Source: Candidatus Heimdallarchaeota archaeon
Lineage (GTDB): Archaea; Asgardarchaeota; Heimdallarchaeia; Hodarchaeales; Hodarchaeaceae
NCBI GenBank assembly: GCA_011364965.1
Contig: RDOB01000001.1
Span: 1-64,000 of the forward strand
Length of the DNA stretch: 64,000 nucleotides
Reading direction: 5' to 3'
Part shown: positions 3 to 48,905 of the stretch, one piece after another
Layout of the letters: each line of letters starts with the position of its first letter
How positions within the stretch are numbered: the stretch's first letter is position 1
The notes under the pieces: generated by a model
Database searches by the model: none
Told to the model about the DNA's origin: nothing
The model's input: the letters and a program-made list of their open reading frames with translations, nothing else
Made by a program: the position numbers and the translations under genes

Positions 3-893
3 TGTTAATGCTTTTCCTGCGAGTTTACAGGTGGGAGGTACTATATAGGCAAAAATTTTATCACATTCATTGGCGAGAACGAGTTTAACAGGAATTTTTT
101 TCCGAGTATGTCCTTTATTCATATTATAATCCGTGATTTTCGTATCCCCATTACAAAGCAGCTCATCCTTATACTTCTGAACCAAAGGTTTTACACCTGA
201 ATTAACACGGGCCCGAATAATAAAAAAAACCTGTTTATCAAGGAGCCACTCGACTAAGTCATAGTTATAAAAATCTCCATCCCCCAATATTCCAATGACC
301 TTTTCTTGAGCGAGTAAAGGGCTTAAGAGGTCTTGAAACCGGTGAAGAGTCGAGTATTTTTTGGGAATTAATTGAACTCCTAATGTAATAGGTTCGGGTG
401 CATTTACCCAAATAACACTGAAAAATTGATAAAATTGGGAAGTACTAGCCTTTGGTTTTCCGTTACGAATATAGGAAGATGTAGTTTTCGCATAATTAGG
501 ATCCAGGTGAAAATCAATCGCAAGTATCATCCCACGCTTTCGTGCACGTTGAAAATTCTCGGGAAGGCTATTTAGAAACTGAAAAAAGCCAATTTGCTGT
601 GTTCCTGTAATTTGGTCAACAGTGTTCGTTTTTAACCAAGCTAAAGTAGTCTCACCGGAAGGAATTGAGATGTTTTGATCTCGAAGATCTCTAGCTTTGC
701 GGGAAATGGAAGTTCGATCTATTGCGGATAGTATAAGTAATTTCAACCGTGATTTCATGTCAAAGGTAGAACTAGTCGGGATTGGATTTGATAATATTTG
801 AAACTTATCAAACCAACGTACCACAAACTTTATAAGAGCTGGAGTTTTTCTAGCTTTTCGTGGTGGAAAGCGAGGTAGCTTTATTTGATCCAT
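3..893 (-). CDS. DDE transposase, ISH3-like, 3' end outside the window (absent from the ORF track)
   Basis: Manual translation from ATG 893: MDQIKLPRFPP...IPSGETTLAWL...MILAIDFHLDPNY...ILGDGDFYNYDLVEWL...FFIIRAR. Shows the first two DDE acidic motifs and no stop up to the window edge. Confidence 0.85.
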   Translation of the reverse strand, partial: MDQIKLPRFPPRKARKTPALIKFVVRWFDKFQILSNPIPTSSTFDMKSRLKLLILSAIDRTSISRKARDLRDQNISIPSGETTLAWLKTNTVDQITGTQQIGFFQFLNSLPENFQRARKRGMILAIDFHLDPNYAKTTSSYIRNGKPKASTSQFYQFFSVIWVNAPEPITLGVQLIPKKYSTLHRFQDLLSPLLAQEKVIGILGDGDFYNYDLVEWLLDKQVFFIIRARVNSGVKPLVQKYKDELLCNGDTKITDYNMNKGHTRKKIPVKLVLANECDKIFAYIVPPTCKLAGKALT

Positions 894-1756: not shown

Positions 1757-2776
1757 TCAGTTTCCATCTATTATCCCTTCCGATGTGACGGAAAATACAG
1801 CTTCACTTTCCGGGAGAAGAGGACTATCAACAATTCTAGCAATTCTAAGATCACCCTTAGATTTTCTCAAATAAACACGGGTTTGAGCGGCATGAGCAAC
1901 AATATTTCCACCGACAGGATAAGTTGGATCTCCAAAGAATTGATCTGGTTTTGATTGAACCTGATTTGTGACAATTACAGCCATATTTCCTATTTCCGCT
2001 GCTCTCAATATTGTATGTATGTGTTGATTCAACTTTTGCTGCCTAGCTGCAAGTGTACCTCTTCCTGTGAATTCAGCACGAAAATGAGCAATAAGTGAAT
2101 CGACAACCATTAACTTAACAGGTTCCTTAGGAAGGTAATCTTTGATTGTTTTTTCAACTAGAACCATTTGGTGGTCGCTATTATGGGCTCGACCGTGAAG
2201 AATGTTTTCTAAGACCTTTTCGACATCAAGATCCTCTTTAAACCTTTCTGCCATCGAAACTATTCTTTCGGGTCTGAAAGTTCCTTCACTATCAATATAC
2301 ATCACCTTCGGATACTCATCACCATCACGTAAACCTCCTTTCTCCCGAGGTAATTGGACTGTTACACATAATTGATGAGCAACCTGAGTTTTTCCTGAAC
2401 GATATTCTCCATAAAATTCTGTTACAGCCCCTGTTTCGATCCCTCCACCAAATAACATATCTAATTTCTGACTTCCGGTAGTGATCTTTGCTAAATCCTT
2501 TCGTCTTTCTAAAACAGACTTTGCTGTCTCAAAATCGATATCAAGGGCTGCTTGCGCAGCTTCAATAATCTTCTTGACAGTTCTTTCGCCCATTCCACCT
2601 ATAGCAGCCAATTCACCCACTGATACAGTCGCAATTGATTCTAATGTTGAAAAACCAGCTTCAACTAGCTTGTTTGCTGTGGTTGGTCCAATTCCTGGAA
2701 GATCTGTTATCGATGTAATCTTTGGTTCATCTTTCGAGGGGGGTTCACTAGTTTCAGCTTTTTTCTTAGGTGTCAT
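1757..2776 (-). CDS. radA: DNA repair and recombination protein RadA
   Basis: N-terminal HhH (LPGIGP), FETA polymerisation motif, Walker A GEYRSGKT, YIDSEGTFRPER, RQQKL, GGNIVAH. Confidence 0.97.
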   Translation of the reverse strand: MTPKKKAETSEPPSKDEPKITSITDLPGIGPTTANKLVEAGFSTLESIATVSVGELAAIGGMGERTVKKIIEAAQAALDIDFETAKSVLERRKDLAKITTGSQKLDMLFGGGIETGAVTEFYGEYRSGKTQVAHQLCVTVQLPREKGGLRDGDEYPKVMYIDSEGTFRPERIVSMAERFKEDLDVEKVLENILHGRAHNSDHQMVLVEKTIKDYLPKEPVKLMVVDSLIAHFRAEFTGRGTLAARQQKLNQHIHTILRAAEIGNMAVIVTNQVQSKPDQFFGDPTYPVGGNIVAHAAQTRVYLRKSKGDLRIARIVDSPLLPESEAVFSVTSEGIIDGN

Positions 2777-3192
2777 TTTTTCTCCTGTCCTTAACTATCT
2801 GCTATATTATGATTAATTTGATCCAATATTCCTCTGAATGAGCCTTCTTTTTTATTCAAAATAATATAATGATAATTTGAATCAATTTAGGCCTTAAATG
2901 AATATTGATCTTTTGGAAATTCTCCTGTAGAAACATTCAATATAACTTTATTAAGTGCTTCGATGAGATTCACCTCAAACTCGCAAATTTCAATCCTATT
3001 TCTTAAAGACTCTAAAGAACGGACTTTTCAAATTAAAAATGCAAAGATTAATATCTTCAATTCAGCTTTTCTCTCTTAATTCCTGTTAGATTTTATTAGG
3101 GAATACAAAAATCCTTAAATCCATCATATAGTGATACACTTCTATAGTGTTAGGAATCACAATAACTATCTGTGAATAAAGAATAAAACAGA

Positions 3193-4119
3193 ATGGGATC
3201 AAACTTGAACATTATCAGATATTCTATGCCTAAATTAAATCTGGGTCGCTTTCTTCACATTCGAAGACGTGCAATTTCTCCAGTTATTGCAACTATCATG
3301 ATTTTCGGTTTAATCATAACAGGTGTAATGATTACATTTATTCAAGTACTTCCCTACATTGAAAAAGCAAAAAGCCAAGAATCGGTTTCAGCGGTACAGA
3401 ATAGCTTCCTTGAATTGGATACTGCTATCAAATCACTAATTAGTGAAAGTGGATCTCCTGGGGGTTATAGAACGGTTTTTGTTCAAAAACCTCAAGGTAG
3501 AATTGATTATATACCCAATCGTAATTTTGTATCTTTTGGTCTTAAAGATCAAGATGATAATTCTATACTCATGATTTTACAGGAACAGGGAATGGGATTA
3601 TTAGATTGGCAATATAGTAGTCCACAATCTCTTCTTCCTCGTGGAACAACGAAATTCTTAACAGGTCCTGATCCTTATAAAACGCGGAATCCTGTTTTCC
3701 TCACTGGTACTTTCTCAAACGAAGAGTATAATGATCTAACAAATTTGACTTTAAGTCATCAGAATGACCGAAAACATCATATTTCTTTAAATTATCGAAT
3801 TTCCGTTTATTTAACTATTTCTACTCAACCAAACCCTCAGATTCAGATTCAAGTCTTTTTGATAATTCTATCAGCAGATTTTAATTCAATTTTCTCTCAA
3901 TATAAACAATTTTCGATACGTTCAACTCAAAATATTTCCACGCCAGTTAATATTCCAAAAAATGATTCAATAGCAGAATTAAATCTTGTGTGGAAGAATG
4001 AAAAAATGCAGACATTTGATTCACTCTGGAATACAAAAGCGATTCAAGGATTCGAACCGAAATATTTCGATATTGTGATTCAAACTTATATATTTGAAAT
4101 TGGTTTATCTACAACCTAA
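3193..4119 (+). CDS. Type IV pilin-like protein with class III signal peptide
   Basis: RRRA|ISPVIATIMIFGLII: basic residues, Ala at -1, then a hydrophobic helix; first gene of the pilus operon. Confidence 0.8.
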   Translation: MGSNLNIIRYSMPKLNLGRFLHIRRRAISPVIATIMIFGLIITGVMITFIQVLPYIEKAKSQESVSAVQNSFLELDTAIKSLISESGSPGGYRTVFVQKPQGRIDYIPNRNFVSFGLKDQDDNSILMILQEQGMGLLDWQYSSPQSLLPRGTTKFLTGPDPYKTRNPVFLTGTFSNEEYNDLTNLTLSHQNDRKHHISLNYRISVYLTISTQPNPQIQIQVFLIILSADFNSIFSQYKQFSIRSTQNISTPVNIPKNDSIAELNLVWKNEKMQTFDSLWNTKAIQGFEPKYFDIVIQTYIFEIGLSTT

Positions 4120-4140
4120 GAAAATGGATTTGGTCAAGAA

Positions 4141-4587
4141 ATGGCGTCTCAATATATTACTTTCATGATTGTTTTCATATTGGGATTAAGTGTTGTTGTG
4201 ATGACAAACACTATGTTCATATCCATGAGCGCACAATTTCAAGAAAATATTGCAGATATCGAAATGGATCAAATATTGAGCAGAGTAAGACTTAATCTTC
4301 AAGAAATGATACTTTTAGTATCAGATTCTAATTTAACTATCCAAAGAGAAATAGATCTTCCCACAATCCTAGGTGAAAGGTTTAGATATTCGATTGATCT
4401 TTCAAATACGACAACCCATATCATTATCAAAGGTTACACAATTAATAGAGAAATATATCAGACAATGGCTTTCTCTATAGAAAATAAATATATTATTCAT
4501 ACCTCAGGTGTTTTTCAAAGCACTTCTAAATTACTAAATCTTAATGTGAGGATTACCTCTAATTTCCTCACAATTTCAATATCCTAA
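4141..4587 (+). CDS. Minor pilin-like protein (N-terminal hydrophobic helix)
   Basis: N-terminal TM helix, an LPTILG..FRYSI segment like archaeal accessory pilins, and operon context. Confidence 0.6.
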   Translation: MASQYITFMIVFILGLSVVVMTNTMFISMSAQFQENIADIEMDQILSRVRLNLQEMILLVSDSNLTIQREIDLPTILGERFRYSIDLSNTTTHIIIKGYTINREIYQTMAFSIENKYIIHTSGVFQSTSKLLNLNVRITSNFLTISIS

Positions 4588-4619
4588 AAAATGATACGAT
4601 AAATATTTAGTCTAACAAG

Positions 4620-6140
4620 GTGAATGAAGTAATGGCCGAATCAAGTAGCTTAATTCGTGAAACATATCCACTAATCCCTCCTTTTAGCTATGCACTTGTT
4701 GCTACAGATCCAGAAACAAAACAAACGAAATATACTGTAGTAGAAGTGCCATTAAGTACAAAAGAAAAAGATATTTTAGATATGGTAAAAAATATCCTCG
4801 AAGAAGAGCTTGATGTTGATTTTAACGTTCTTAAAAGTCCAGATGTAGCTCGAGATTATTTGAGATCAAAAGTTATTGCAATTGCAAAAGATTACGGTCT
4901 TAAATTAGATGAAAAAACCTTTGATAAAATAAATTACCATATAGCACGAGATTTTGTTGGTTTCGGCCCGATAGATGCTATGTTGAAAGATCATAACGTA
5001 GAAGATATATCCTGTGATGGTGTAGGAATTCCAGTCTATATTTGGCATCGAAAATTTGAAAGTATCCAAACAAATGTAAAATTTGATAATGAAGATGATC
5101 TAGACGCATTTATTATTAAATTGGCACAGCGGGCTGGAAGGCATATTAGTGTTGCAAGACCTTTACTAGATGCTGCATTGCCAGATGGCAGTCGATTACA
5201 ATTAACGTATGGCAGAGAGGTCACGCAAAGGGGAAGTACATTTACTATTAGAAAATTCCGTTCAGATCCACTTACAATAACAGATATGGTGATTTTTAAT
5301 ACGATTGATGAAGATCTAGCAGCATTTTTATGGTATGTATTGGAAAATAGAAATTCCATTGTGATTGCAGGAGGTACCGCTGCAGGTAAAACCTCATTAC
5401 TTAACAGTTTAGCAATGTTTATTCGTCCAGGTATGAAGATTGTATCTATTGAAGACACTGCAGAATTACACATTCCACATGAAAATTGGATTCCTGCAGT
5501 TGCAAGGGAGGGTTATGGCGGAAGGGAAATGGATGGATCACGACGGGGTGAGGTTTCAATGTATGATCTTCTCCGTGCTGCTTTAAGACAAAGACCTGAT
5601 TATCTTTTCGTAGGAGAAGTAAGAGGAGCGGAAGCTTACAATCTTTTCCAAGCCATGGCTACTGGGCATACTGGAATGGGCACAATCCACGGGGATAGTG
5701 TAACTGGAACCATTAGAAGGTTAGAAAATGAACCAATGAATATTCCGCGAACATTAATTCAAACACTGAATTTCCTTCTTGTTCTTCGAAAAGTACGAAG
5801 GGGAGACAAACAAGTTCGTCGTGTAATTGAGTGTACTGAGATCGTAGGGATAGATCCCGTAACAACAGAACTCATTACAAACAAGGTATTTGGTTGGAAC
5901 GCAAGAGAAGATTCCTATATCAACTATGGACGGTCTTATGCTTTAGAGGGAATACAAGAAGGCCAAGGATTGACAGAAAACCAGGTTTATGAGGAATTAG
6001 ATCGTCGGAAGACAATTTTACGTTGGATGGTGAAAAAGAAACTTGCTCATTATTCTCAAGTAGCTGAGGTAGTAAATAATTATTATCAAAATCCTCTTGA
6101 AACAGTTGATAGAGCAAAACGAGAATTAAAGTCTCTGTAA
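4620..6140 (+). CDS. Type IV pilus/archaellum-family assembly ATPase (PilB/FlaI/TadA-like)
   Basis: EDISCDG, Walker A GGTAAGKT, SIEDTAE, ALRQRPD, VGEVRGAEA, His box GHTG..TIH. Confidence 0.95.
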   Translation: MNEVMAESSSLIRETYPLIPPFSYALVATDPETKQTKYTVVEVPLSTKEKDILDMVKNILEEELDVDFNVLKSPDVARDYLRSKVIAIAKDYGLKLDEKTFDKINYHIARDFVGFGPIDAMLKDHNVEDISCDGVGIPVYIWHRKFESIQTNVKFDNEDDLDAFIIKLAQRAGRHISVARPLLDAALPDGSRLQLTYGREVTQRGSTFTIRKFRSDPLTITDMVIFNTIDEDLAAFLWYVLENRNSIVIAGGTAAGKTSLLNSLAMFIRPGMKIVSIEDTAELHIPHENWIPAVAREGYGGREMDGSRRGEVSMYDLLRAALRQRPDYLFVGEVRGAEAYNLFQAMATGHTGMGTIHGDSVTGTIRRLENEPMNIPRTLIQTLNFLLVLRKVRRGDKQVRRVIECTEIVGIDPVTTELITNKVFGWNAREDSYINYGRSYALEGIQEGQGLTENQVYEELDRRKTILRWMVKKKLAHYSQVAEVVNNYYQNPLETVDRAKRELKSL

Positions 6141-6147
6141 TAGATGC

Positions 6148-7071
6148 ATGGAGTGTCCTTCTGTGAGTAAATTTATCCGAAGAGTTGGTTATCTTAGATT
6201 TGGAAGATATTTGGAGCCATTATTTGAAAAGGGACGATTTGAACGATTAAATACAAGTCTAAAGAAGGCAGGAATGGATATATCGATACGAGCCTACTTA
6301 GGAAGTGCTCTTTTAACCTCAATTTTGCTTACAATTTTCGTATTTATATTCTCATTTTTGACTTTGAACATTGTATTCCAAAATATCACTCCAGATACAC
6401 CACCAGAAAACATATTGACTGTTTCTTTAATTCTTGGAATTTTTTTGGGTATACTTACTGGAATATTTACTTATTTCCCCTTCCTTTATTGGCCTCAGAT
6501 GAAAGCAACGGATAGAAAAATTCTAATTGAAGCAGGCTTAACTTCAACTGCATCGTACTTATCTGCTATGTCGAGTTCGGGAGTTCCCCCTGATAGATTG
6601 TTTTATTCGTTAGCAGGAGAAGAATCAGTTGCACCTGAAATTTCAAAGGAGAGTAAACGTATCACAAGAGATATTGAAATATTTGGGTATGATATTCTAA
6701 AGGCATTAAGAACTGCAGCTGAACGTTCTCCATCCGAGAGATTCGCAAAATTTCTTGATGGTATGTCTGCAACCATTACAAGTGGAGGAGATTTAACGTT
6801 TTTCTTAGCTGCAGAAACAACTGCTTTGATGAAGGTTAAAGAAGAAGAAACTAAAGAATTTATAGATCAATTAGGAGTTCTTGCAGAAATCTTCATGATT
6901 GTTGGGGTTGTTGCTCCCTTATTTTTTGTAGTAATTCTTGCTATTCTTGCTGTTATAAGCCCTGAAGCAACTCTGGGCCAAGTTTTCATGATTTTCTTAA
7001 CATACTTCATAATGCCTATTCTACTTGTTATTATGAATTTAATGGTTAGTACAATTTCAAGAGAAATCTGA
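6148..7071 (+). CDS. Type IV pilus membrane platform protein (TadC/PilC/FlaJ-like) 1
   Basis: T2SSF-like segment (SSGVPP...FGYDILKAL..AAERSPS..F..FL.G...TITSGGDL) with flanking TM helices. Confidence 0.9.
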   Translation: MECPSVSKFIRRVGYLRFGRYLEPLFEKGRFERLNTSLKKAGMDISIRAYLGSALLTSILLTIFVFIFSFLTLNIVFQNITPDTPPENILTVSLILGIFLGILTGIFTYFPFLYWPQMKATDRKILIEAGLTSTASYLSAMSSSGVPPDRLFYSLAGEESVAPEISKESKRITRDIEIFGYDILKALRTAAERSPSERFAKFLDGMSATITSGGDLTFFLAAETTALMKVKEEETKEFIDQLGVLAEIFMIVGVVAPLFFVVILAILAVISPEATLGQVFMIFLTYFIMPILLVIMNLMVSTISREI

Positions 7072-7093
7072 TCAATATGGAGGTACAAGGATA

Positions 7094-8056
7094 TTGGTAA
7101 AGTTGTCTAAAAAGCGCGAACGAAACCTTTGGATTTTATCTATTGCATTGTTCATAATTAGCTTACCTGTAGGGTTATTATTCTACACTCCCCTAATCGA
7201 ACACTTATTTCAAGTACAACCTCCAACCATTTCAGACCCTCCCTTACCTGAAGGTGAAACTCATCCTTATATCTATTCAATTAGAGAAGTATTTAACATT
7301 GGATTCTTTGATATTATTGATATAACTGCATTAGCTATACTCGCTCTTATTCTGTTACCTGCATTAGCTTACAGATCTGATCGAAACTGGAGGGATAATA
7401 TTGATGAACATATTCCATCCTTACTTAGAGAAATATCTGATGCCCAAAAAACAGGATTACCATTACCCCGAGCAATCATGGAATCATCTAAACATCAATA
7501 TGGTGCTCTTACTCCTGAGCTCAAAAAAATGGCAGCAAAAATTAGTTGGGGGATTCCTTTCTATGATGCACTTCGCAGTCTAACGGAAACTGCAGACACC
7601 CCCTTAATGAAGAGAACATCATTATTGATACTAGAAGCTGAAAGATCTGGTGGTGCAATTGAAGAGGTGTTTGAAGCAGCACATAAACATGTTTCAGAAA
7701 TCTTGGGGCTTAAAAGAGAACGGTTAGGGGCAATGAAACCTTATACTATGATAATTTATGCTTCATTCATTGTTTTTGCTCTAGTGATGCTCATTCTCCT
7801 CTATTCATTCTTTACAATACTCGCTCTTCAAATTGTTGAAGCAGTCGCAGAAGGGCAAAATCCCACCGCAAAGCTCCCCTTTAATTTAGCAGGATTACAA
7901 TTAATATTCTTCCACTTAATGCTAATTGAAGCTACCTTTGCAGGCCTAATTGCAGGAAAAATGGGTGAGGGAGACTCAAAATTAGGTTTAAGACACTCAT
8001 GTATACTAGTGGGGATCTCATATTTATTCTTTAAGATTCCGATATACTTTTTATAA
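7094..8056 (+). CDS. Type IV pilus membrane platform protein (TadC/PilC/FlaJ-like) 2
   Basis: TGLPL..AI...YGAL..EL..ISWGIPF..AL, SGG.I.EV, and C-terminal FAGLIAGKMGEG...GLRH. Confidence 0.9.
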   Translation: MVKLSKKRERNLWILSIALFIISLPVGLLFYTPLIEHLFQVQPPTISDPPLPEGETHPYIYSIREVFNIGFFDIIDITALAILALILLPALAYRSDRNWRDNIDEHIPSLLREISDAQKTGLPLPRAIMESSKHQYGALTPELKKMAAKISWGIPFYDALRSLTETADTPLMKRTSLLILEAERSGGAIEEVFEAAHKHVSEILGLKRERLGAMKPYTMIIYASFIVFALVMLILLYSFFTILALQIVEAVAEGQNPTAKLPFNLAGLQLIFFHLMLIEATFAGLIAGKMGEGDSKLGLRHSCILVGISYLFFKIPIYFL

Positions 8057-8075
8057 GCATAAGAGGTTGTAAAAA

Positions 8076-8534
8076 ATGGGAAAAGAAGAAAAAATGTTAA
8101 CAGAACTGCTAGAAAAAATCTCAACGCTGGAAGATAAGATTACAAACATGGAATTCCTCTTAGTTCAAGGTATGGGAACTGGAGGGGGATCACTTCCCAC
8201 TCCAAGTCCTTCAGTAAATACTGGTCAAATTCCAGCAGGCGCAGTAAAAGTTGACCTCGCTCCGATTGAAAATCGCATAACACTGATCGAAGAAAATGTT
8301 AAAGTAATTACAAATCAACTTACATCATTAACAGAAGTAACTAAAGGAATGCAGACTGAAAAAACACAAAAAGCAGATGAATTAATAACTCAAGCTACCA
8401 CCCTTCTTGAAAGAGGACTACAACTCACCGAGTTAGAGACAACAATGCTCGAGGTAAAAGATCGCCTTGAAGAAATTATTGTACAACTTGAGGTAGCAAA
8501 TGTAGGTGTAGTTAGTGAAGAAAAATCTTCGTAG
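8076..8534 (+). CDS. Coiled-coil hypothetical protein in the pilus operon
   Basis: Heptad-rich helices separated by a G/P/S linker; SD-like GAGG upstream. Confidence 0.65.
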   Translation: MGKEEKMLTELLEKISTLEDKITNMEFLLVQGMGTGGGSLPTPSPSVNTGQIPAGAVKVDLAPIENRITLIEENVKVITNQLTSLTEVTKGMQTEKTQKADELITQATTLLERGLQLTELETTMLEVKDRLEEIIVQLEVANVGVVSEEKSS

Positions 8535-8571
8535 AATGAAAAAGCTATAAGTTACAGGAATAATTAGAACG

Positions 8572-9753
8572 ATGAACAGGAAGATTGGCTTTTTATTCAA
8601 AAGAAGGAGAGGACAAATAAGAGCAGTGGATTTTGTTGTTAGCCTCTTTCTTTTTTTATTAATGCTATCACAACTAATCTTGTTAATCATTAATGTTCAA
8701 TCAGGAATAATTAGCACTCGTGAGGGATACATTTCATATGATGAATTAGATATTTTTGGAAGAGCAATTCTACAAAAAGAGGGGGATCCTAATTGGGGAT
8801 ATCAGCAAGGACTCCCTGACAATTTTGGTTTAGCCATAGAGAACTCACATTCAGGATTAACCTTAGATCCATCCAAAATTGCACGATTAATAACTGGTAC
8901 AACATATCCTATTTCTTCAGTATCAGGTTTTGATATATTTGACTATTCTACATTAAAGAATTGGATACATCTTGAATCAGAATATGATTTTCAACTTACA
9001 TTAACTCCGAGTCTAAATGTGGATTTATCAGTGACTTTAGAAAATACTTCATGGAACAATCTTGAAGTTTTTGTATCAGGATCCAATGAAATACCTATTG
9101 AGAACGCAATAGCTCAATTTTGGATACTTGATTTGACCGATAGGGAAATTATTAACAATGGAATTCAAACTACAGATCAATGGGGAGAAGCAGTAATTCA
9201 ATATGAAGTACCAAATTTAAATGATCCAGAAAGAGCTCATATTCCAATAGTTATTGTTAGCAAATTTAATTTATGGGGATTAGACTGGGTCAATCCTAAT
9301 CTAGAAAGAGCTGTTGTTGGGACAGTCTCAAACACCACTTTATGGTTAGGAGGTACCTCTCCTTCAACAATGCTGGTTTCAGACATTTTGGAGTCTACAG
9401 GAACTCTTGATACCCACTTTTTATCAATATTATATGAAGATACCAATGGAGTCTACAAAAATATTTCATTAGACGTGTCTACAAGTCTCGATGCAAATGA
9501 ATCACTTGGTATTCCTAGTGAGGGACTAGTAGTATGTTTTAGCATTTCCAAATTTGATAGTGTCTATAAAGTAGGAGTAGGGACATATCCAGCCATATTA
9601 GACAATGACTTATCAGCTTCTGGATCATTTTACCAAATTTTTGGAGAACTGACTTTTCCTGACCGAATCAGAGCAATGATCTCCAAAGATTTTCCAGTAA
9701 TTGTCCGAGGTTTGTCAATGAAGTGTCAAATTACACTTTGGAGGGAAGGTTAA
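8572..9753 (+). CDS. Large minor pilin/adhesin with GQ-type class III signal
   Basis: KRRRG|QIRAVDFVVSLFLFLL followed by a beta-rich extracellular region. Confidence 0.8.
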   Translation: MNRKIGFLFKRRRGQIRAVDFVVSLFLFLLMLSQLILLIINVQSGIISTREGYISYDELDIFGRAILQKEGDPNWGYQQGLPDNFGLAIENSHSGLTLDPSKIARLITGTTYPISSVSGFDIFDYSTLKNWIHLESEYDFQLTLTPSLNVDLSVTLENTSWNNLEVFVSGSNEIPIENAIAQFWILDLTDREIINNGIQTTDQWGEAVIQYEVPNLNDPERAHIPIVIVSKFNLWGLDWVNPNLERAVVGTVSNTTLWLGGTSPSTMLVSDILESTGTLDTHFLSILYEDTNGVYKNISLDVSTSLDANESLGIPSEGLVVCFSISKFDSVYKVGVGTYPAILDNDLSASGSFYQIFGELTFPDRIRAMISKDFPVIVRGLSMKCQITLWREG

Positions 9754-9757
9754 AACT

Positions 9758-10255
9758 TTGTTAAACAAAAGAAAAGGACAATTACAGATTGCAGAAACTT
9801 TAGTTTCTGTCACCTTAATGCTAGCTCTTGCTCTCCTTTTAATTAGTGCTGCTAACCAATTAACTTCACCTTCAACAGACTTTACATATTTAAATCAAAC
9901 CGCAGAAGATATTCTTGCCACAGCGGATGAATTAGGATTATTAAGACCATGTGTTTACCTATTTGGTAATATAAATTATGATGATGCATATACTCTCTAT
10001 CAGGATGCATTAATAGATTATATTAAGGTTCATATGCCACCCAAACTAGGTTATTCTTTGATTTGTCATGAAATCATTGATGGTAGTACAAATCCCTCTT
10101 ACTTTACCATCATTGGAACCTCTGCAGATATATTAGCTTATCAGGGGGATGCTATCGTTGTCGCTAATTACCATCTAGGATCTTTCAGTTCCTCAGAATT
10201 TGGATTATTTGATTTACAATATCTTGTTCAATTATTTATTTGGGAGAAGATCTAG
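9758..10255 (+). CDS. Minor pilin with GQ-type class III signal
   Basis: KRKG|QLQIAETLVSVTLMLAL. Confidence 0.8.
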   Translation: MLNKRKGQLQIAETLVSVTLMLALALLLISAANQLTSPSTDFTYLNQTAEDILATADELGLLRPCVYLFGNINYDDAYTLYQDALIDYIKVHMPPKLGYSLICHEIIDGSTNPSYFTIIGTSADILAYQGDAIVVANYHLGSFSSSEFGLFDLQYLVQLFIWEKI

Positions 10256-10969
10256 ATGAGAACGTTGAATCATATTAAGAGTAAAAGTAGAAGGGGACAA
10301 ATGTTTATTCTTGCAACAATGCTGATTGCAATCTACTTAGTTACGATGACTGCAGCTTTAATGAACCTAGGGGTATATCAAATTGATGTAGAACAAGATA
10401 TTATTCTCGAGCCCTATAATGATGTGAAACGAGAAATCCAATACTACTTGGAATTTCTATTGGCTGATTATTCATCCAATGAGTCAATTATTTCGCTCGA
10501 ACCATATATTGCTAGATTACAGTATTTTCTTCGTTCTCTAGAGCTTTCTTATACAGAAAGAGGAGTTCAGATTGATTTAATGCTTAAAACAAATGAATTT
10601 CACCTTCAATCTAATAAGCCTCCTTATAGTAATACAACGGATTCCACGGTATATATTAGTCAAATAGGTGCTATTTTTGAATTAAAGCTAAGTACAATCT
10701 CTAGTTCCTATTCAATCGAAGAAACCTTTTCTATTTCATATATAGGGCGAGCAGAGATAGATGATACCACTGTTATAGTACAAGAATCTAGGGGAAAACA
10801 ATTTCATTTTATAAATGCTTTTTCGATCTTTATTGATAATGGAAGCATTCTTATTCCATCATTATCTACAAATCAAATTGGAGTATACTCTTTCGAGACG
10901 ATAGGAGATATTAACAATCTTGGGATCCTATATATTACTTTAGAAAATGGGATCCGGATCTTTTCGTGA
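10256..10969 (+). CDS. Minor pilin with GQ-type class III signal
   Basis: SRRG|QMFILATMLIAIYLV. Confidence 0.8.
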   Translation: MRTLNHIKSKSRRGQMFILATMLIAIYLVTMTAALMNLGVYQIDVEQDIILEPYNDVKREIQYYLEFLLADYSSNESIISLEPYIARLQYFLRSLELSYTERGVQIDLMLKTNEFHLQSNKPPYSNTTDSTVYISQIGAIFELKLSTISSSYSIEETFSISYIGRAEIDDTTVIVQESRGKQFHFINAFSIFIDNGSILIPSLSTNQIGVYSFETIGDINNLGILYITLENGIRIFS

Positions 10970-10975
10970 AACCAT

Positions 10976-13900
10976 ATGAATAAACTTGAATTTGAAGAGT
11001 ACATTCAACAAATTAAGAAGAACTTGATTGTTCAACTTGAAATTGCTGCAAGTGCACGAAATAAAAGACTGGATCCGACTGATAAAATTGAGAGTATTTT
11101 ATCCTATAACCCAAAATCAAAAATTTCCGCGATATTAGACATTCCTGGTCTTGAAGATTTTCTTCCTGAAAATCTCACGAAGGTAGAAAATTTAGTAATT
11201 TTTTCTGCAAATATTGCAAGCCAAATTGTAAATGAACGATTTATAAAAAAACCAAGAGAGGATCTTATACTACTAGCTTTGCATAGCGCTTTGGTCATTT
11301 TAAGCCAGGGATTGATATCTGTTCCCCAAGAAAGTATCCCAAAAGTTTCGGTTAGCCCAAAATCAAACCATCTTACAATATATTTCTCAAATACGGTTCG
11401 ATATGTTGATGGGGAAGTTATTGGTTTGGTTATATTTATTGCTGATATTATAAGGGATATCTTGCATCTAGATAGATTTATTCCGACTCCAGAGCTAACA
11501 GGAAGATACGTTGAAGAATTGGAAATCTATTATAATTTAAATGATAAAATAAATTCGCTAAGAAGAGATATTGTTGAACTTCTTGTTTATAATATTGGTA
11601 TAGAAATTTCAGGGGAGCCATATGAGAGAATTGAGGTAATAAAATATAGAAATCTACCTAGTGTTACTAATCAGCTAAGAATGGGGATGTGTGTTGCAAT
11701 CGAACGATTTATTGAAAACATCAATGATATTGCTCTAAAAAGATTGAACTCTGGGATAATGAAATGGAACTGGCTTAAATATCCATTTTCAGGCTTAACG
11801 CGGAAAAAATTACAATTTGGACTTCACGATGTAAGAGCTACTCAACCGTTACTTTCTGAATCAAACAAACCTGGTGGATTCAGATTGAGATATGGATTAT
11901 CTAGAAATATTGGACAGGGAGCAGTAGGTATTCATCCTAGCATCATTTATCTTGTAAAATTACTTACTCCAGGAACTAATATCAGAATGGATGTATTAGA
12001 GGGAAACTTGACTGTTTTCCCAGTTATCAATATTTTGGGACCATTAGTGGAGCTAAAAGATGGTTCAGCGAGAAGAATGAAATCATTAGAGGAAACTAGG
12101 GCATTAGAAGACGAGATAGTTCAAATCTGGGAAATGGGGGATATATTATTATCACCAAACGATATACCTACAGCTGAAAGTATCGAGGAAACAGGATGGT
12201 CTGAAGAATGGTGGAGCGCAGAGATTTGGAAATATGTACATTCATATGCTAAATCTCTGGAGGTTTTAGCTGCAAGAACGGGGATAGACATTGAAAACCT
12301 CCGGGATTTTCTAGAGAAACCCACAGTAAATTCTCCGAATGCAAGTCAGGCAATAGGATTAGCAAAGGTAACTAAAATTCCATTGCACCCTTCCTTCTCT
12401 TTAAATTGGAATGAAATTACCATAAGCGAATTATTATGGTTGTTGAATAACCTTTCCTTTACTTCAGATGGATTTATACCTTTTTCAGAAGAGATGAGAC
12501 TTCTTTTCCTTCGTCTTGGTATGGAATTCAAATTAAAGGATAATCTATTTCATTCAGAACATACACTTATTTTTGAAGCTCTGAAAAAGAAAGAAAAACT
12601 TCTAAATTCGATTCTGATGGACAATCCTCACGCTTATACTGAAGAAATAGTATCTATGTTAATTGAGATACCATTAAAGTCATTATGTCAGCGAAGGATA
12701 GGTGTAAAAATAATAAAAGCTGAAAAAGCTGAACCTAGACAAATCAATCCTCCCGCTCATATTTTATTTCCTATAGGAAATTTCGGAGGTCCACAAAGGA
12801 ATTTGTTGAAAATATCTAAAGAAAAGCAATTTAAAGTTCAGTTATCAGAAAGATTCTGTCCAACTTGCGAAATATCCACGTTTACTGCTTTTTGTCCTAA
12901 ATGTAAACAGGAAACCGAACAACATTATATCTGTAGAGAAGGACATGTTTCAAAATCAAAAATTTGCGAACAATGTGATAATTATGGATTTCCAGCTCGT
13001 TACAAGCAAATTGATCTAGGTAAAATGATCGAGGTACAACTTAACAAAATTCAGGAATTCAAGATTAAGAAAATCAAAGGTATTTCCTACCTCAACAATC
13101 GATATAGAATACCTGAACACATAATGAAAGGAATTTTGAGATCGTATCGAAATTTATATGTTTATAAAGATGGTACTATTCGTTTTGATCAAACAAACGC
13201 CATATTGAGGTTCTTTAAACCAAAAGAGGTTAATTCGTCTATCGATAACCTGAAAAGACTTGGATATACTCATGATGTAAATGGAAATGATATAAATGAT
13301 GAAAACCAATTGTTAGAATTGTTTCCATACGATATTATTGTAAGTGAGAACGCTGCAGATTACTTAGTTGATATTGCAAAATTTTTAGATGATGAATTAA
13401 TTTATCTTTATGATATGTTACCTTATTTCAGAATAAATACGAAAAAAGATATCAACGGAATTTTAGTAGTTGGGATGTCTCCTTTTTCAATGGTTGGGGT
13501 AATTGGAAGGATAATTGGTTATTCAAGAAACAATGTACTTTATGCTCACCCCTTGTGGCACAAGCTGAAAACGAGAAATTGTTCGGGGAACATTGATTCT
13601 ATTGCTCATTTATTAGACATCTTTTTAAATTTCTCCAAAGAACTTGTTCCAAATGTCCGTGGAGGGTCCCTTGATGTTCCTAATATTATAAATCTGCCCG
13701 ATAGCTGGGAGGATACTCATATATACTCAAATTACCTATACATTCCATTGAATTTACAGTTTTATCAATCTCTAAAAGGGAACCCTTCTATCTCAGAGAT
13801 CCTGTCGTATAATGAATCTTTTTTAACACCTAAGAATTCCTTGCTATATACGATTGACGATATTTCCCTCTATGACATGAAAAATGACTTTCAAGAATCC

Positions 13901-14296
13901 AAAATCTTTAATAAAATTGAATCTGAACTTAAGATCCTCCGAGTAATACGAGGTGTAAATGAAGGAGAATTTGTGGATAAAATTCTTGAATATGACCTAT
14001 TAGAGAAAATTTCAGGGTCATTTGACAGATTTTTCCTGCAGCCAGTGCGATGCAAAGCTTGTAACAAAACCTTTAGACGTGTTCCAATCTCTGATTCATG
14101 CCCGAATTGTCAGCGAAAAACGCTAACCTTGACTCTATCAGAGGGATGGGTACTTAGGTACTTGCAAATTGTGAAAGAATTGAAAGAGAAATACTCAGAT
14201 GATATATCGGATTATTCTAAATCGTGGATTGATTTAATAGATTTGAATAAACGATTATACTTTGATAGAGGCCCTCGTCATACTACTCTTATCTGA
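10976..14296 (+). CDS. polC: DNA polymerase D large subunit (DP2) homologue, predicted catalytically inactive
   Basis: DP2 motifs GGFRLRYG, PPAHILFPIG..GG, KGILR...VYKDGTIRFD, GRIIG, LNFS, RGG..D.P and Zn ribbons are present. The catalytic RNCDGDED reads RNCSGNID and there is no C-terminal PIP box. Confidence 0.9.
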   Translation: MNKLEFEEYIQQIKKNLIVQLEIAASARNKRLDPTDKIESILSYNPKSKISAILDIPGLEDFLPENLTKVENLVIFSANIASQIVNERFIKKPREDLILLALHSALVILSQGLISVPQESIPKVSVSPKSNHLTIYFSNTVRYVDGEVIGLVIFIADIIRDILHLDRFIPTPELTGRYVEELEIYYNLNDKINSLRRDIVELLVYNIGIEISGEPYERIEVIKYRNLPSVTNQLRMGMCVAIERFIENINDIALKRLNSGIMKWNWLKYPFSGLTRKKLQFGLHDVRATQPLLSESNKPGGFRLRYGLSRNIGQGAVGIHPSIIYLVKLLTPGTNIRMDVLEGNLTVFPVINILGPLVELKDGSARRMKSLEETRALEDEIVQIWEMGDILLSPNDIPTAESIEETGWSEEWWSAEIWKYVHSYAKSLEVLAARTGIDIENLRDFLEKPTVNSPNASQAIGLAKVTKIPLHPSFSLNWNEITISELLWLLNNLSFTSDGFIPFSEEMRLLFLRLGMEFKLKDNLFHSEHTLIFEALKKKEKLLNSILMDNPHAYTEEIVSMLIEIPLKSLCQRRIGVKIIKAEKAEPRQINPPAHILFPIGNFGGPQRNLLKISKEKQFKVQLSERFCPTCEISTFTAFCPKCKQETEQHYICREGHVSKSKICEQCDNYGFPARYKQIDLGKMIEVQLNKIQEFKIKKIKGISYLNNRYRIPEHIMKGILRSYRNLYVYKDGTIRFDQTNAILRFFKPKEVNSSIDNLKRLGYTHDVNGNDINDENQLLELFPYDIIVSENAADYLVDIAKFLDDELIYLYDMLPYFRINTKKDINGILVVGMSPFSMVGVIGRIIGYSRNNVLYAHPLWHKLKTRNCSGNIDSIAHLLDIFLNFSKELVPNVRGGSLDVPNIINLPDSWEDTHIYSNYLYIPLNLQFYQSLKGNPSISEILSYNESFLTPKNSLLYTIDDISLYDMKNDFQESKIFNKIESELKILRVIRGVNEGEFVDKILEYDLLEKISGSFDRFFLQPVRCKACNKTFRRVPISDSCPNCQRKTLTLTLSEGWVLRYLQIVKELKEKYSDDISDYSKSWIDLIDLNKRLYFDRGPRHTTLI

Positions 14297-14447
14297 AATA
14301 TAGATACCTAACATGTTTAATGTGATTAATTCCGTGTTTACAATGCAAAGCTTTTTTTAACTTCAGATTTACAATAATCTTGATAATCAACTTTTATTGA
14401 TATTCCTAATTAAATCCTCAAAAGTCAATTGCTGTGAAGGCGTCAAA

Positions 14448-48077: not shown

Positions 48078-48905
48078 ATGATTTCTATTGACCTTACTAG
48101 TTTTTCAATTATATTTACTCTAGCGGTTCTTTTTATAGGTTCTTGGCAAGATATCCATTCTCGTGAAGTCACTGATTTGATTTGGTATATTTTAATTCTT
48201 GGAGGGATAATAATTCATTTGTTTCAAATAAGGGTTTTTCTAATATCTGAAATCCCACCTGATAGCTATATTGCCACATGGATTTCCAATATTGGGGTAG
48301 GAATTTTCCTTGTAGTCTTTTTGACGATATTTGGCCTTGGAGGGGAAGCTGATCGCATAGCTTTTCTAGTTTTGGCAATAATTTCTCCTATTAACCTTCC
48401 TATTTTTCAAGTTAATAATCCAAATTATTCCTTAATTTCTTCTGTTATTCCAAATATTCTGGGTACATTCTTTAACGCTTATTTCATTACCTTACCAGTT
48501 CCATTGATTATTTTTCTTTTTAATTTATTCAATCAAATCGCTAATCCTAAATTTTATAACTTTTCTCATGAATCGAAGCTATCTACCTTTTTTCTAAGAT
48601 TTATTGGTTATCCCAAGTCAACTGTTAACTTGGAAACATTATTAGAAAAGAATCCATGGCATTTTGACTTTCTTGAGGATTATAAAGAAGAATCGGGATG
48701 GTTTATATCGTATCGAATTCGATTAGACACCCCTGAAGAGGATCTAAAGCGAAAAAAACGTGTATTAAAAAAGATACAGGCAACGAATAAATCAGAAGTT
48801 TGGATTCAACCTACATTCCCTTTTATTCTCCTCATAACGCTGGGATACACCTTAAATGTATTTTGGGGGAATTTGATCTTCTTATTTGTAGCTTTATTAT
48901 TCTGA
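48078..48905 (+). CDS. pibD: Prepilin/preflagellin peptidase (A24, PibD/FlaK-like)
   Basis: First Asp in SWQDIHSREV.D, second Asp in GGEAD, multi-TM, C-terminal VWI.P..PF...I..GY. Confidence 0.85.
   Translation: MISIDLTSFSIIFTLAVLFIGSWQDIHSREVTDLIWYILILGGIIIHLFQIRVFLISEIPPDSYIATWISNIGVGIFLVVFLTIFGLGGEADRIAFLVLAIISPINLPIFQVNNPNYSLISSVIPNILGTFFNAYFITLPVPLIIFLFNLFNQIANPKFYNFSHESKLSTFFLRFIGYPKSTVNLETLLEKNPWHFDFLEDYKEESGWFISYRIRLDTPEEDLKRKKRVLKKIQATNKSEVWIQPTFPFILLITLGYTLNVFWGNLIFLFVALLF

What the first reader, a model, noticed from the sequence alone, without database searches (positions are those of the whole stretch)
1757..14296. Type IV pilus operon ending in a catalytically dead PolD, divergent from radA: candidate DNA-uptake/processing system
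Seen: eight tightly packed pilus-operon genes (five pilin-like, one ATPase, two TadC-like, plus an intervening coiled-coil gene) run into the DP2 homologue with only a 6-nt gap (10969 to 10976). radA points away from a shared 416-nt intergenic region. Established: type IV pili drive DNA uptake in competent prokaryotes, and recombinases are often co-regulated with them; polC normally sits with replication genes, not pili. Inference: a polymerase-dead DP2 has been repurposed as a DNA-binding or handover factor for pilus-imported DNA feeding RadA. I know of no described system with this composition.
Basis: partly seen in the sequence, partly recalled or inferred. Interest (0 to 1): 0.9.

Follow-up and report, generated by a model that had tools for sequence, protein, structure and literature searches.

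The report
Dead PolD subunit trailing pilus operon
In one family of Hodarchaeales (Asgard archaea), the genome's only gene for the large subunit of DNA polymerase D has lost its catalytic residues and is the last, tightly coupled gene of a surface-filament (type IV pilus-like) operon; comparison with relatives points to one old gene rearrangement, not a DNA-uptake machine.

Summary
Nine co-oriented type IV filament genes (3193-10969) run into a full-length DP2 gene (10976-14296) after a 6-nt gap. A RadA paralogue diverges across 416 nt. DP2 reads NCSGNID where canonical DP2 has NCDGDED, so both aspartates shown essential in Pyrococcus are gone. It is the only DP2 in this 87%-complete genome.

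The organism is a Hodarchaeales archaeon, in the same genus as B3_Heim. The inactive PolD of this group was published in 2020 (Kazlauskas et al., PMC7544198).

The p165-p237-DP2 junction is kept in 19 of 19 congeners with an assembled flank. It is also kept in a deeper metagenomic lineage whose downstream genes differ. DP2 is therefore very probably co-transcribed with the pilus genes.

Against a shared function:
- The linkage traces to one event.
- The sister family has a dead DP2 away from pilus genes.
- The same pilus module exists class-wide without DP2.
- Active DP2 genes in sister families also have unrelated neighbours.
- No ComEC or DprA was found.
- DP1 stays beside orc1/cdc6.

Most likely this is a non-catalytic PolD remnant riding on a pilus transcript. 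The DNA-uptake reading is not excluded (about 0.1). This scan found the same locus earlier in other Hodarchaeales genomes.

The parts
1757..2776 (-). RadA paralogue (339 aa; HhH plus Rad51 core), one of five Rad51-family genes in the genome, divergent from the pilus operon
   Evidence: Pfam Rad51 E 2e-91 and HHH_5. Five Rad51-family loci in the genome, with paralogues 70, 56 and 43% identical. 75-80% identical and in the same position in congeners.
2777..3192 (.). 416-nt divergent intergenic region holding a conserved 22-nt element (3100-3121, GGAATACAAAAATCCTTAAATC). Probably the operon promoter region.
   Evidence: The element recurs upstream of pil308 in several congeners. It is unique in this genome at up to 3 mismatches. 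Sequence shown. The promoter role is inferred.
3193..4119 (+). pilin (308 aa) with a classic archaeal class III signal, RRRA|ISPVIATIMIF
   Evidence: N-terminus; weak DUF7289 hit; 47-60% identical in congeners.
4141..4587 (+). small pilin-like protein (148 aa) with an N-terminal hydrophobic helix and no clear cleavage motif
   Evidence: conserved position in congeners.
4620..6140 (+). type IV filament assembly ATPase (FlaI/PilB-like), single-copy orthologue across the class
   Evidence: T2SSE E 4e-37. FlaI 430 bits, under the 550 cut-off. 90-94% identical within the genus, 55-66% across families, found in 78 of 83 class genomes. dN/dS about 0.02.
6148..8056 (+). two TadC-like platform genes (307 and 320 aa), a split FlaJ/UpsF-type platform protein
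   Evidence: One T2SSF domain each. They match the N-terminal and C-terminal halves of ArlJ/FlaJ and UpsF models, far below the cut-offs.
8076..8534 (+). soluble coiled-coil protein (152 aa), a conserved member of the pilus module
   Evidence: No family, no TM segment. Follows tadC2 in other families as well.
8572..10969 (+). three pilin-like genes: p393, p165 and p237 (class III signals RRRGQ|, KRKGQ|, SRRGQ|)
   Evidence: N-termini; weak DUF7261 hit for p237. The same tadC1-tadC2-cc-p393-p165-p237 order occurs in a Heimdallarchaeaceae-type genome.
10976..14296 (+). DP2, the large subunit of PolD (1106 aa): full length, polymerase-dead, C-terminal PIP box lost, CTD zinc finger kept; terminal gene of the operon
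   Evidence: The catalytic loop (NCSGNID, residues 868-874) lies at about 13577-13597. dN/dS 0.09-0.14.
14340..14362 (+). oligo-T run (GCTTTTTTTA) about 55 nt after the DP2 stop. Possible archaeal transcript end.
   Evidence: Sequence. The DP2-to-CBS spacer varies from 133 to 396 nt among congeners. The terminator role is inferred.

Best explanation
This locus is the type IV filament operon that is conserved across the class Heimdallarchaeia. It has a FlaI-like ATPase, a split FlaJ/TadC platform, a coiled-coil protein and four to five pilins.

In one family of Hodarchaeales (the genus that includes B3_Heim, plus a deeper metagenomic lineage), the genome's only DP2 gene was relocated to the 3' end of this operon. 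That DP2 was already polymerase-dead in the ancestor of the order (D956N). It is now expressed from the pilus transcript by read-through and translational coupling.

DP2 itself is a conserved non-catalytic remnant of PolD. It most likely still pairs through its C-terminal domain with DP1, which remains next to orc1/cdc6, while family-B polymerases copy the genome.

The adjacency to pilus genes and to a RadA paralogue is a legacy of gene order. It became locked in once DP2 depended on the operon's promoter. It is not a shared biochemical pathway.

Shown: the gene identities, the dead active site, conserved linkage, purifying selection and the distribution. Inferred: co-transcription, DP1 pairing and the absence of a pilus-related role.
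For: Dead active site:
- D956S and D958N in the window. D956 is replaced in every Hodarchaeales DP2 seen. D958 is kept in 67% of 39 sequences.
- 63 of the 212 columns that are at least 93% conserved in 69 canonical DP2 are replaced. These include the RMGRPEK and APHTS motifs and the C-terminal PIP box.

Not a pseudogene:
- dN/dS is 0.09-0.14.
- Many replaced positions are themselves invariant within the clade.
- The CTD zinc finger and helices are among the best conserved parts.

Coupling:
- The p237-to-DP2 gap is 5-7 nt, or a 4-nt overlap, in almost every genome measured. The DP2-to-CBS gap varies from 133 to 396 nt.
- There is a GAGG-like stretch before the ATG and no conserved TATA-like element in the last 90 nt.
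- p165-p237-DP2 is contiguous in 19 of 19 congeners with the flank assembled and in L061-L063.

Single origin and no dependence of the pilus on DP2:
- The sister family f2 has a degenerate DP2 that is not next to pilus genes.
- In families f3-f5 the ATPase and an active DP2 lie far apart or on different contigs.
- In G038 the same six-gene module ends at an HSP20 gene.

DP2 neighbourhoods are uninformative in this class:
- An active DP2 follows Mrp antiporter genes by 87 nt in G031. In G038 it follows an LSM gene.

Other points:
- The whole block radA...p174 is syntenic in the genus, including the unrelated CBS and NFACT genes.
- DP1 is retained in 20 of 21 congeners and evolves at a similar rate to DP2 (42-51% against 47-57% identity). 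It lies tail-to-tail with orc1/cdc6 in all 19 loci examined.
- Literature: the B3/LC3-like group lacks an active DP2 and has a PolB with a zinc C-terminal domain (PMC7544198). The genome has a 1470-aa PolB.
Against: - The junction survives in a deeper lineage (DP2 39% and p237 32% identical) whose downstream genes are different. This is more than general synteny would predict.
- Loss of the PCNA-binding PIP box, together with many new clade-invariant residues, suggests DP2 has left its old replisome role. It may have a new one.
- A minor-pilin operon is an odd place from which to express a replisome scaffold.
- DP1-DP2 pairing was not demonstrated here.
- DP1 was not detected in the sister family with either query.
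Confidence: 0.6

Rival explanations
1. The dead DP2 has been recruited as a DNA-binding or hand-over factor of a pilus-based DNA-uptake or DNA-exchange system. It would receive imported DNA at the cytoplasmic face and pass it to the neighbouring RadA paralogue.
For: - Tight coupling to the pilus operon is conserved in 19 of 19 congeners and in a deeper lineage with changed downstream genes.
- DP2 is under purifying selection, carries clade-specific invariant residues and has lost its PIP box.
- The RadA here is one of five paralogues, so it could be specialised.
- Type IV pili are tied to DNA exchange in Sulfolobales (PMC11823120 abstract). From my own knowledge, they are also tied to natural transformation in Methanococcus.
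Against: - The linkage has a single origin.
- A dead DP2 without pilus linkage exists in the sister family.
- The same pilus module is present in 78 of 83 class genomes without DP2.
- No ComEC or DprA was found in this 87%-complete genome.
- DP2 has no membrane segment or new domain. It is collinear with canonical DP2.
- radA is separated from the pilus genes by unrelated genes in G038 and is absent from the other fetched pilus loci.
- Cultured Hodarchaeales show filaments at contacts with partner cells, which suggests attachment (10.1101/2025.02.26.640444).
Confidence: 0.12
2. The DP2-DP1 pair is kept as a polymerase-dead, nuclease-competent DNA-processing complex used in repair or recombination. 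It would be co-regulated with a RadA paralogue and the filament operon in a Ups-like stress response, without touching the pilus physically.
For: - DP1 keeps motifs I, II, IV and V. In motif III it changes only N to E across the genus (GEHD).
- Kazlauskas et al. thought that B3 DP1 may still be active.
- The divergent radA/pilus arrangement with a conserved, genome-unique 22-nt element is kept in the genus.
- The PIP box is lost.
Against: - In this window's species DP1 motif III is GERD and DP2 has lost both aspartates. Catalysis by either subunit therefore seems dispensable here.
- DP1 is encoded elsewhere, next to orc1/cdc6.
- No expression data exist.
- No repair genes were seen in the operon.
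Confidence: 0.15
3. DP2 is a decaying pseudogene that merely remains open.
For: - The catalytic residues are lost.
- DP2 evolves much faster than the ATPase.
- One congener (G015) has an internal TGA.
Against: - It is full length and open in about 40 distinct sequences at 45-57% identity.
- dN/dS is about 0.1.
- There are more than 150 invariant columns.
Confidence: 0.02

Closest known systems
Inactive PolD of the 'Heimdall_B3/LC3-like' group (Kazlauskas, Krupovic, Guglielmini, Forterre, Venclovas 2020, NAR; PMC7544198, Suppl. Figs S15-S16)
   Same: It is the same clade: B3_Heim is a congener (P0031, on the 87,993-nt contig that is G002:C21). DP2 has a degraded active site, DP1 is divergent, and a large PolB with a zinc C-terminal domain co-occurs.
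   Different: That paper does not mention gene context. Added here: the loss is order-wide; D958 was lost more than once; the PIP box is gone; dN/dS is about 0.1; and the gene is the last cistron of a type IV filament operon in one family.
Canonical PolD large subunit DP2 (P. abyssi, PDB 6HMS, 6T8H, 5IJL; T. kodakarensis 6KNB)
   Same: Collinear over residues 5-1089. All three Pfam domains are present. The zinc-finger cysteines and the C-terminal DP1-binding region are kept.
   Different: D956 and D958 are replaced. The RMGRPEK and APHTS motifs are degraded. The C-terminal PIP box is replaced by GPRPTTL(I/F). The score falls below the cut-off of every NCBIfam equivalog (741 against 1269 for the best-matching model).
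Sulfolobales Ups pili with the Ced DNA-import system
   Same: A type IV pilus operon linked to DNA exchange and recombinational repair (PMC11823120 and PMC11868833 abstracts). From my own knowledge (van Wolferen et al. 2015), the ups operon is followed by DNA-processing genes.
   Different: The UpsF model matches at only 46 bits against a cut-off of 400. Ced homologues were not searched for. There is no evidence of damage induction. The trailing gene here is a dead polymerase subunit, not a nuclease or helicase.
Archaeal type IV filament systems (archaellum FlaI/FlaJ, Aap-like and Epd-like pili; PMC13705601)
   Same: Core set: ATPase, platform protein and class III signal pilins. A candidate A24 peptidase lies elsewhere in the window.
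   Different: The platform protein is split into two genes. There are no archaellins and no ArlH, ArlF or ArlG. That survey reports that Asgard T4F genes are rarely in one ordered locus, whereas this one is a compact nine-gene operon.
Eukaryotic Pol epsilon (inactive C-terminal half) and the inactive B subunits
   Same: A polymerase module kept as a non-catalytic structural part, with its small-subunit partner retained while other family-B enzymes do the synthesis (concept from PMC7544198).
   Different: The fold is unrelated (two double-psi beta-barrels). A structural role for Hodarchaeales DP2 has not been shown.

Membership tests
PolD large subunit (DP2) family | N-terminal, central and catalytic DP2 domains in order, full length | tested here: met
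   PF03833, PF24844 and PF24846 with E 5e-37 to 1e-71; E 8e-146 to P. abyssi DP2 over residues 5-1089.
PolD large subunit (DP2) family | Catalytic aspartates D956 and D958 in the NCDGDED loop | tested here: not met
   NCSGNID in the window. D956 is absent in all Hodarchaeales DP2 examined. Essentiality is taken from PMC4996933.
PolD large subunit (DP2) family | C-terminal zinc finger and helical CTD that binds DP1 | tested here: met
   CxxC...CxxC and the following helices are conserved (C1026, C1029, C1042 and C1045 are invariant). Binding to DP1 itself was not shown.
PolD large subunit (DP2) family | C-terminal PCNA-interacting (PIP) box | tested here: not met
   The canonical KQxSLxDF tail is replaced by GPRPTTL(I/F) in all Hodarchaeales sequences aligned.
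Archaeal type IV filament (pilus) system | T2SSE-type assembly ATPase | tested here: met
   PF00437 E 4e-37. It is the only strong T2SSE hit in the genome.
Archaeal type IV filament (pilus) system | Polytopic platform protein (T2SSF domains) | tested here: met
   Two adjacent genes with one T2SSF domain each. They match the two halves of FlaJ/UpsF.
Archaeal type IV filament (pilus) system | Pilins with a class III signal peptide | tested here: met
   RRRA|ISPVIAT, RRRGQ|, KRKGQ| and SRRGQ| followed by hydrophobic helices. These were read by eye, not with a predictor.
Archaeal type IV filament (pilus) system | Class III signal (prepilin) peptidase in the genome | tested here: inconclusive
   One Peptidase_A24 match at window 48114-48491, 23.6 bits against a cut-off of 26.5.
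Archaellum | FlaI equivalog score; archaellins; ArlH, ArlF, ArlG | tested here: not met
   FlaI model 430 bits against a cut-off of 550. No archaellin or other archaellum family matched the locus proteins.
Natural-competence DNA-uptake machinery | ComEC-type DNA channel and DprA | tested here: not met
   PF03772 and PF02481 gave no match in the own genome, which is 87% complete. The controls matched 10-11 reference genomes.
Sulfolobales Ups/Ced DNA-exchange system | UpsE/UpsF/UpsA-B equivalogs and CedA/CedB | tested here: inconclusive
   UpsF model 46 bits against a cut-off of 400 for both platform halves. Ced proteins were not searched, as none of the libraries used was known to hold a model for them.

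The most novel reading that the evidence does not exclude
In Hodarchaeaceae-type Asgard archaea, a polymerase-dead, PCNA-uncoupled DP2 has been exapted as the cytoplasmic DNA-handling component of a type IV filament system, possibly together with DP1 as a nuclease. The system would take up or exchange DNA and feed a dedicated RadA paralogue. That would be an archaeal competence or exchange route built without ComEC or DprA.
Probability: 0.12. Interest if true: 0.8.

Novelty: new variant of a known kind. Interest (0 to 1): 0.35.

Why it matters
Hodarchaeales are among the closest known archaeal relatives of eukaryotes, and their replication apparatus is used to model how the eukaryotic polymerases arose. 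A PolD that has lost its polymerase chemistry and its PCNA box, yet is kept under selection, parallels the inactive modules of eukaryotic Pol epsilon and the B subunits. Knowing what it now does would bear on that transition. Its expression from a surface-filament operon is an unexplained regulatory oddity. If the coupling were functional, it would point to an undescribed archaeal DNA-uptake route. If it is accidental, as judged here, it is a clear case of conserved operon membership that does not imply shared function.

Tried and rejected
- Co-fold of DP1 (residues 150-515) with the DP2 CTD (985-1106), using alignments A1 and A2. The tool gave no verdict (runs 0.39, 0.00, 0.03). It counts neither for nor against binding.
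- Public RNA runs. No RNA holder was listed for 8000-13000, so co-transcription could not be tested and read laying was not used. The stretch is held by DNA runs of seven studies, two rows of which may be the source sample.
- The search for related loci in genome contigs with DP2 gave no confirmed locus. Relatives were reached through the genome search instead.
- Stop-codon read-through fusing p237 to DP2. The two genes are in frame in the window (6-nt gap), but gaps of 5, 7 and -4 nt in congeners break the frame. Rejected.
- Internal promoter for DP2. A TATATATT stretch about 40 nt upstream in the window is not conserved in congeners. This does not exclude a promoter further inside p237.
- Regulon search with the conserved 22-nt element upstream of pil308. 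It is unique in the genome.
- Ancient radA-pilus linkage. Seen only loosely in G038, about 4.3 kb away with a transposase, a glycosyltransferase and a Ras-like GTPase in between. Not seen in the other fetched pilus loci.
- Strict co-degeneration of DP1 and DP2. The window species has the most degraded motifs in both. The B3 clade, however, lost D958 while keeping GEHD in DP1. Not a rule.
- Literature. The 2025 replisome survey (PMC12680538) and the 2026 T4F survey (PMC13705601) do not mention the DP2-pilus linkage.

Full report
**What is in the window.**
ORF listing and profile searches give this map:
- radA, 1757-2776 on the minus strand: HhH plus Rad51 core.
- A 416-nt spacer.
- Nine co-oriented genes on the plus strand:
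  - pil308: classic archaeal class III signal RRRA|ISPVIAT.
  - pil148: N-terminal hydrophobic helix only.
  - A T2SSE ATPase. FlaI is the best NCBIfam model, at 430 bits against a cut-off of 550.
  - Two TadC-like genes that match the N and C halves of FlaJ/UpsF.
  - A soluble 152-aa coiled-coil protein.
  - Three further pilin-like genes: p393, p165 and p237, with RRRGQ|, KRKGQ| and SRRGQ| signals.
- After 6 nt, a 1106-aa DP2 at 10976-14296.
- An oligo-T run about 55 nt past its stop.
- A CBS-domain gene, and a convergent NFACT gene.

**DP2 is polymerase-dead.**
- DP2 aligns with P. abyssi DP2 over residues 5-1089 (E 8e-146) and carries all three DP2 Pfam domains.
- Canonical DP2 reads RRNCDGDED; the window reads TRNCSGNID.
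- In P. abyssi numbering these changes are D956S and D958N. Sauguet et al. describe D956 and D958 as the two invariant aspartates critical for polymerase activity (PMC4996933).
- I aligned 39 clade members against 69 canonical DP2. Of the 212 columns that are at least 93% conserved in canonical DP2, 124 are kept, 25 are partly kept and 63 are replaced.
- The replaced positions include the RMGRPEK motif, the APHTS motif, R866 and the glutamine of the C-terminal PIP box. The whole KQxSLxDF tail is replaced by a clade-conserved GPRPTTL(I/F).
- The genome (87% complete) holds only this one DP2. It also holds one DP1 and three PolB loci, one of them a 1470-aa open frame.

**Who it is, and what is already known.**
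- Names attached to database relatives identify the clade as Hodarchaeales.
- One congener is Candidatus Heimdallarchaeota archaeon B3_Heim (P0031, on an 87,993-nt contig, which is G002:C21).
- Kazlauskas et al. 2020 reported that the 'Heimdall_B3/LC3-like' group lacks an active DP2, has a divergent or inactive DP1, and co-occurs with a PolB that bears a zinc C-terminal domain (PMC7544198).
- The dead DP2 as such is therefore already known. NCBI often labels these proteins 'hypothetical'.

**Extent of the inactivation.**
- All 20 congeners with a DP2 lack D956. Most read NCNGDID. The B3 subclade reads SCNGA/V..D. The window reads NCSGNID.
- D958 was thus lost at least twice after D956, as expected once catalysis was gone. 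The third aspartate and the following serine stay invariant.
- The two genomes of the sister family f2 have TANGDID and NVFLGAVH. A deeper metagenomic lineage has NCNGDVD.
- Families f3-f5 of the same class keep CDGDED, some with an intein at that site.
- The change is therefore order-wide and old.

**The gene is not decaying.**
- It is open and full length in about 40 distinct sequences at 45-57% identity.
- dN/dS is 0.09-0.14 in unsaturated pairs. This is similar to the CBS gene and the pilins, and far above the ATPase at about 0.02.
- Many replaced positions are themselves invariant in the clade.

**The linkage.**
- In 12 congeners with long flanks, the order radA <> pil308-pil148-ATPase-tadC1-tadC2-cc-p393-p165-p237-DP2-CBS < NFACT is identical.
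- p165-p237-DP2 is contiguous in 19 of 19 congeners whose DP2 5' flank is assembled, and in two further metagenome contigs.
- The p237-to-DP2 spacer is 5-7 nt or a 4-nt overlap, while the DP2-to-CBS spacer ranges from 133 to 396 nt.
- The bases before the ATG form a GAGG-like stretch. No TATA-like element is conserved in the last 90 nt.
- The most informative case is L061, a lineage with DP2 only 39% and p237 only 32% identical. There p237 overlaps DP2 by 4 nt although every downstream gene differs.
- DP2 is therefore very probably the last cistron of the pilus transcript. No RNA data exist to prove it.

**Why I do not read this as a DNA-uptake machine.**
1. The linkage is one evolutionary event.
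   - In family f2 the degenerate DP2 has other neighbours: a p194-like gene, or an unidentified 349-aa ORF.
   - In families f3-f5 the orthologous ATPase and the active DP2 are megabases apart or on different contigs.
2. The pilus system does not need DP2.
   - The ATPase is a single-copy orthologue in 78 of 83 class genomes.
   - The six-gene module tadC1-tadC2-cc-p393-p165-p237 recurs in a Heimdallarchaeaceae-type complete genome. There it ends at a convergent HSP20 gene.
3. The premise that polC sits with replication genes fails in this class. An active DP2 lies 87 nt behind two Mrp-antiporter subunit genes in G031. In G038 it lies behind an LSM gene.
4. Within the genus the whole block is syntenic, including the plainly unrelated CBS and NFACT genes. 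Conservation of adjacency alone says little. Once DP2 depends on the upstream promoter, the junction is protected by selection whatever its function.
5. Neither ComEC nor DprA was found in the genome. DP2 has gained no membrane segment or extra domain.
6. DP2's canonical partner stays in a replication context.
   - DP1 is present in 20 of 21 congeners and evolves about as fast as DP2.
   - It keeps nuclease motifs I, II, IV and V, with GNHD changed to GEHD (GERD in the window).
   - It lies tail-to-tail with orc1/cdc6 in all 19 loci examined.
   - The DP2 C-terminal domain that binds DP1 in canonical PolD is among the best conserved parts.
7. Cultured Hodarchaeales bear filaments at contacts with partner methanogens. 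The authors link these to attachment (10.1101/2025.02.26.640444).

**What keeps the novel reading alive.**
- The junction survives where the downstream synteny is broken (L061).
- DP2 has lost its PCNA box and acquired many new invariant residues.
- The adjacent RadA is one of five Rad51-family paralogues (70, 56 and 43% identical copies elsewhere), so it could be specialised.
- There is a precedent for pili tied to DNA exchange in Sulfolobales (PMC11823120 and PMC11868833). From my own knowledge, DNA-processing genes trail the ups operon, and type IV-like pili are needed for transformation in Methanococcus.
- I put the uptake/hand-over reading at about 0.12. I put a looser 'repair complex co-regulated with RadA and the filament' reading at about 0.15.

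**Verdict.**
- Best explanation (0.6): a non-catalytic PolD remnant whose gene was captured by the 3' end of the class-wide type IV filament operon in one Hodarchaeales family.
- The dead DP2 is already published. The operon capture was not mentioned in any paper I searched or read.
- Other agents of this scan noted the same locus in other Hodarchaeales genomes and reached the same view. I treat that as repetition, not as independent evidence.
- Interest is moderate to low unless transcript or interaction data show a real link.

Noticed in passing
G000:C9:375408-376148, C14:20126-20866, C11:340085-340765, C16:93227-93925, and window 1757-2776: The genome carries five Rad51/RadA-family genes. 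Three score about 305 bits. The three copies I read (L086, L088, L089) carry an N-terminal HhH domain and are 70, 56 and 43% identical to the window copy; the C16 copy was not read. This is an unusually large RadA paralogue set for an archaeon.
   Followed up: partly
G000:C12:307619-309160 (L002:1342-2889, minus strand): DP1 lies tail-to-tail, 11 nt from an Orc1/Cdc6 gene. Nuclease motif III reads GERD here and GEHD in all 18 congeners, against the canonical GNHD. Motifs I, II, IV and V are kept. Orc1 is 80-87% identical across the genus, while DP1 is only 42-51%.
   Followed up: partly
G000:C9:184646-185530 (L049, L050): A 1470-aa open frame carries weak, split PolB matches. It is probably the Pol-epsilon-like PolB with a zinc C-terminal domain described for Hodarchaeales in the literature.
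   Followed up: no
window 48114-48491 (+): The only Peptidase_A24-like match in the genome (23.6 bits, just under the 26.5 cut-off) lies in a 288-aa frame. It is a candidate class III signal peptidase for the pilins of this operon, about 45 kb away on the same contig.
   Followed up: no
window 58984-60042 (-): A 901-aa family-B DNA polymerase gene lies in the same window (Pfam DNA_pol_B E 6e-49).
   Followed up: no
window 3100-3121: A 22-nt element, GGAATACAAAAATCCTTAAATC, sits about 70 nt upstream of pil308. It is conserved in several congeners and unique in this genome. It is likely a promoter or operator of the pilus operon or of radA.
   Followed up: partly
window 3-893 (-): A DDE transposase fragment sits at the very start of the contig. 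A related DDE transposase also sits between radA and the pilus genes in G038 (L054:5256-6200).
   Followed up: no
G015:C1:2667766-2671074 (L010): The DP2 of one congener has an in-frame TGA and is recorded as an 868-aa protein (P0042). This is either a sequencing error or a real truncation in that species.
   Followed up: no
G022 and G023 (family f2): No DP1 was detected with the genus DP1 protein or with Pfam PF04042 in the two sister-family genomes (80-85% complete). Their DP2 is only 24-26% identical to the window's. PolD may be degenerating further there.
   Followed up: partly
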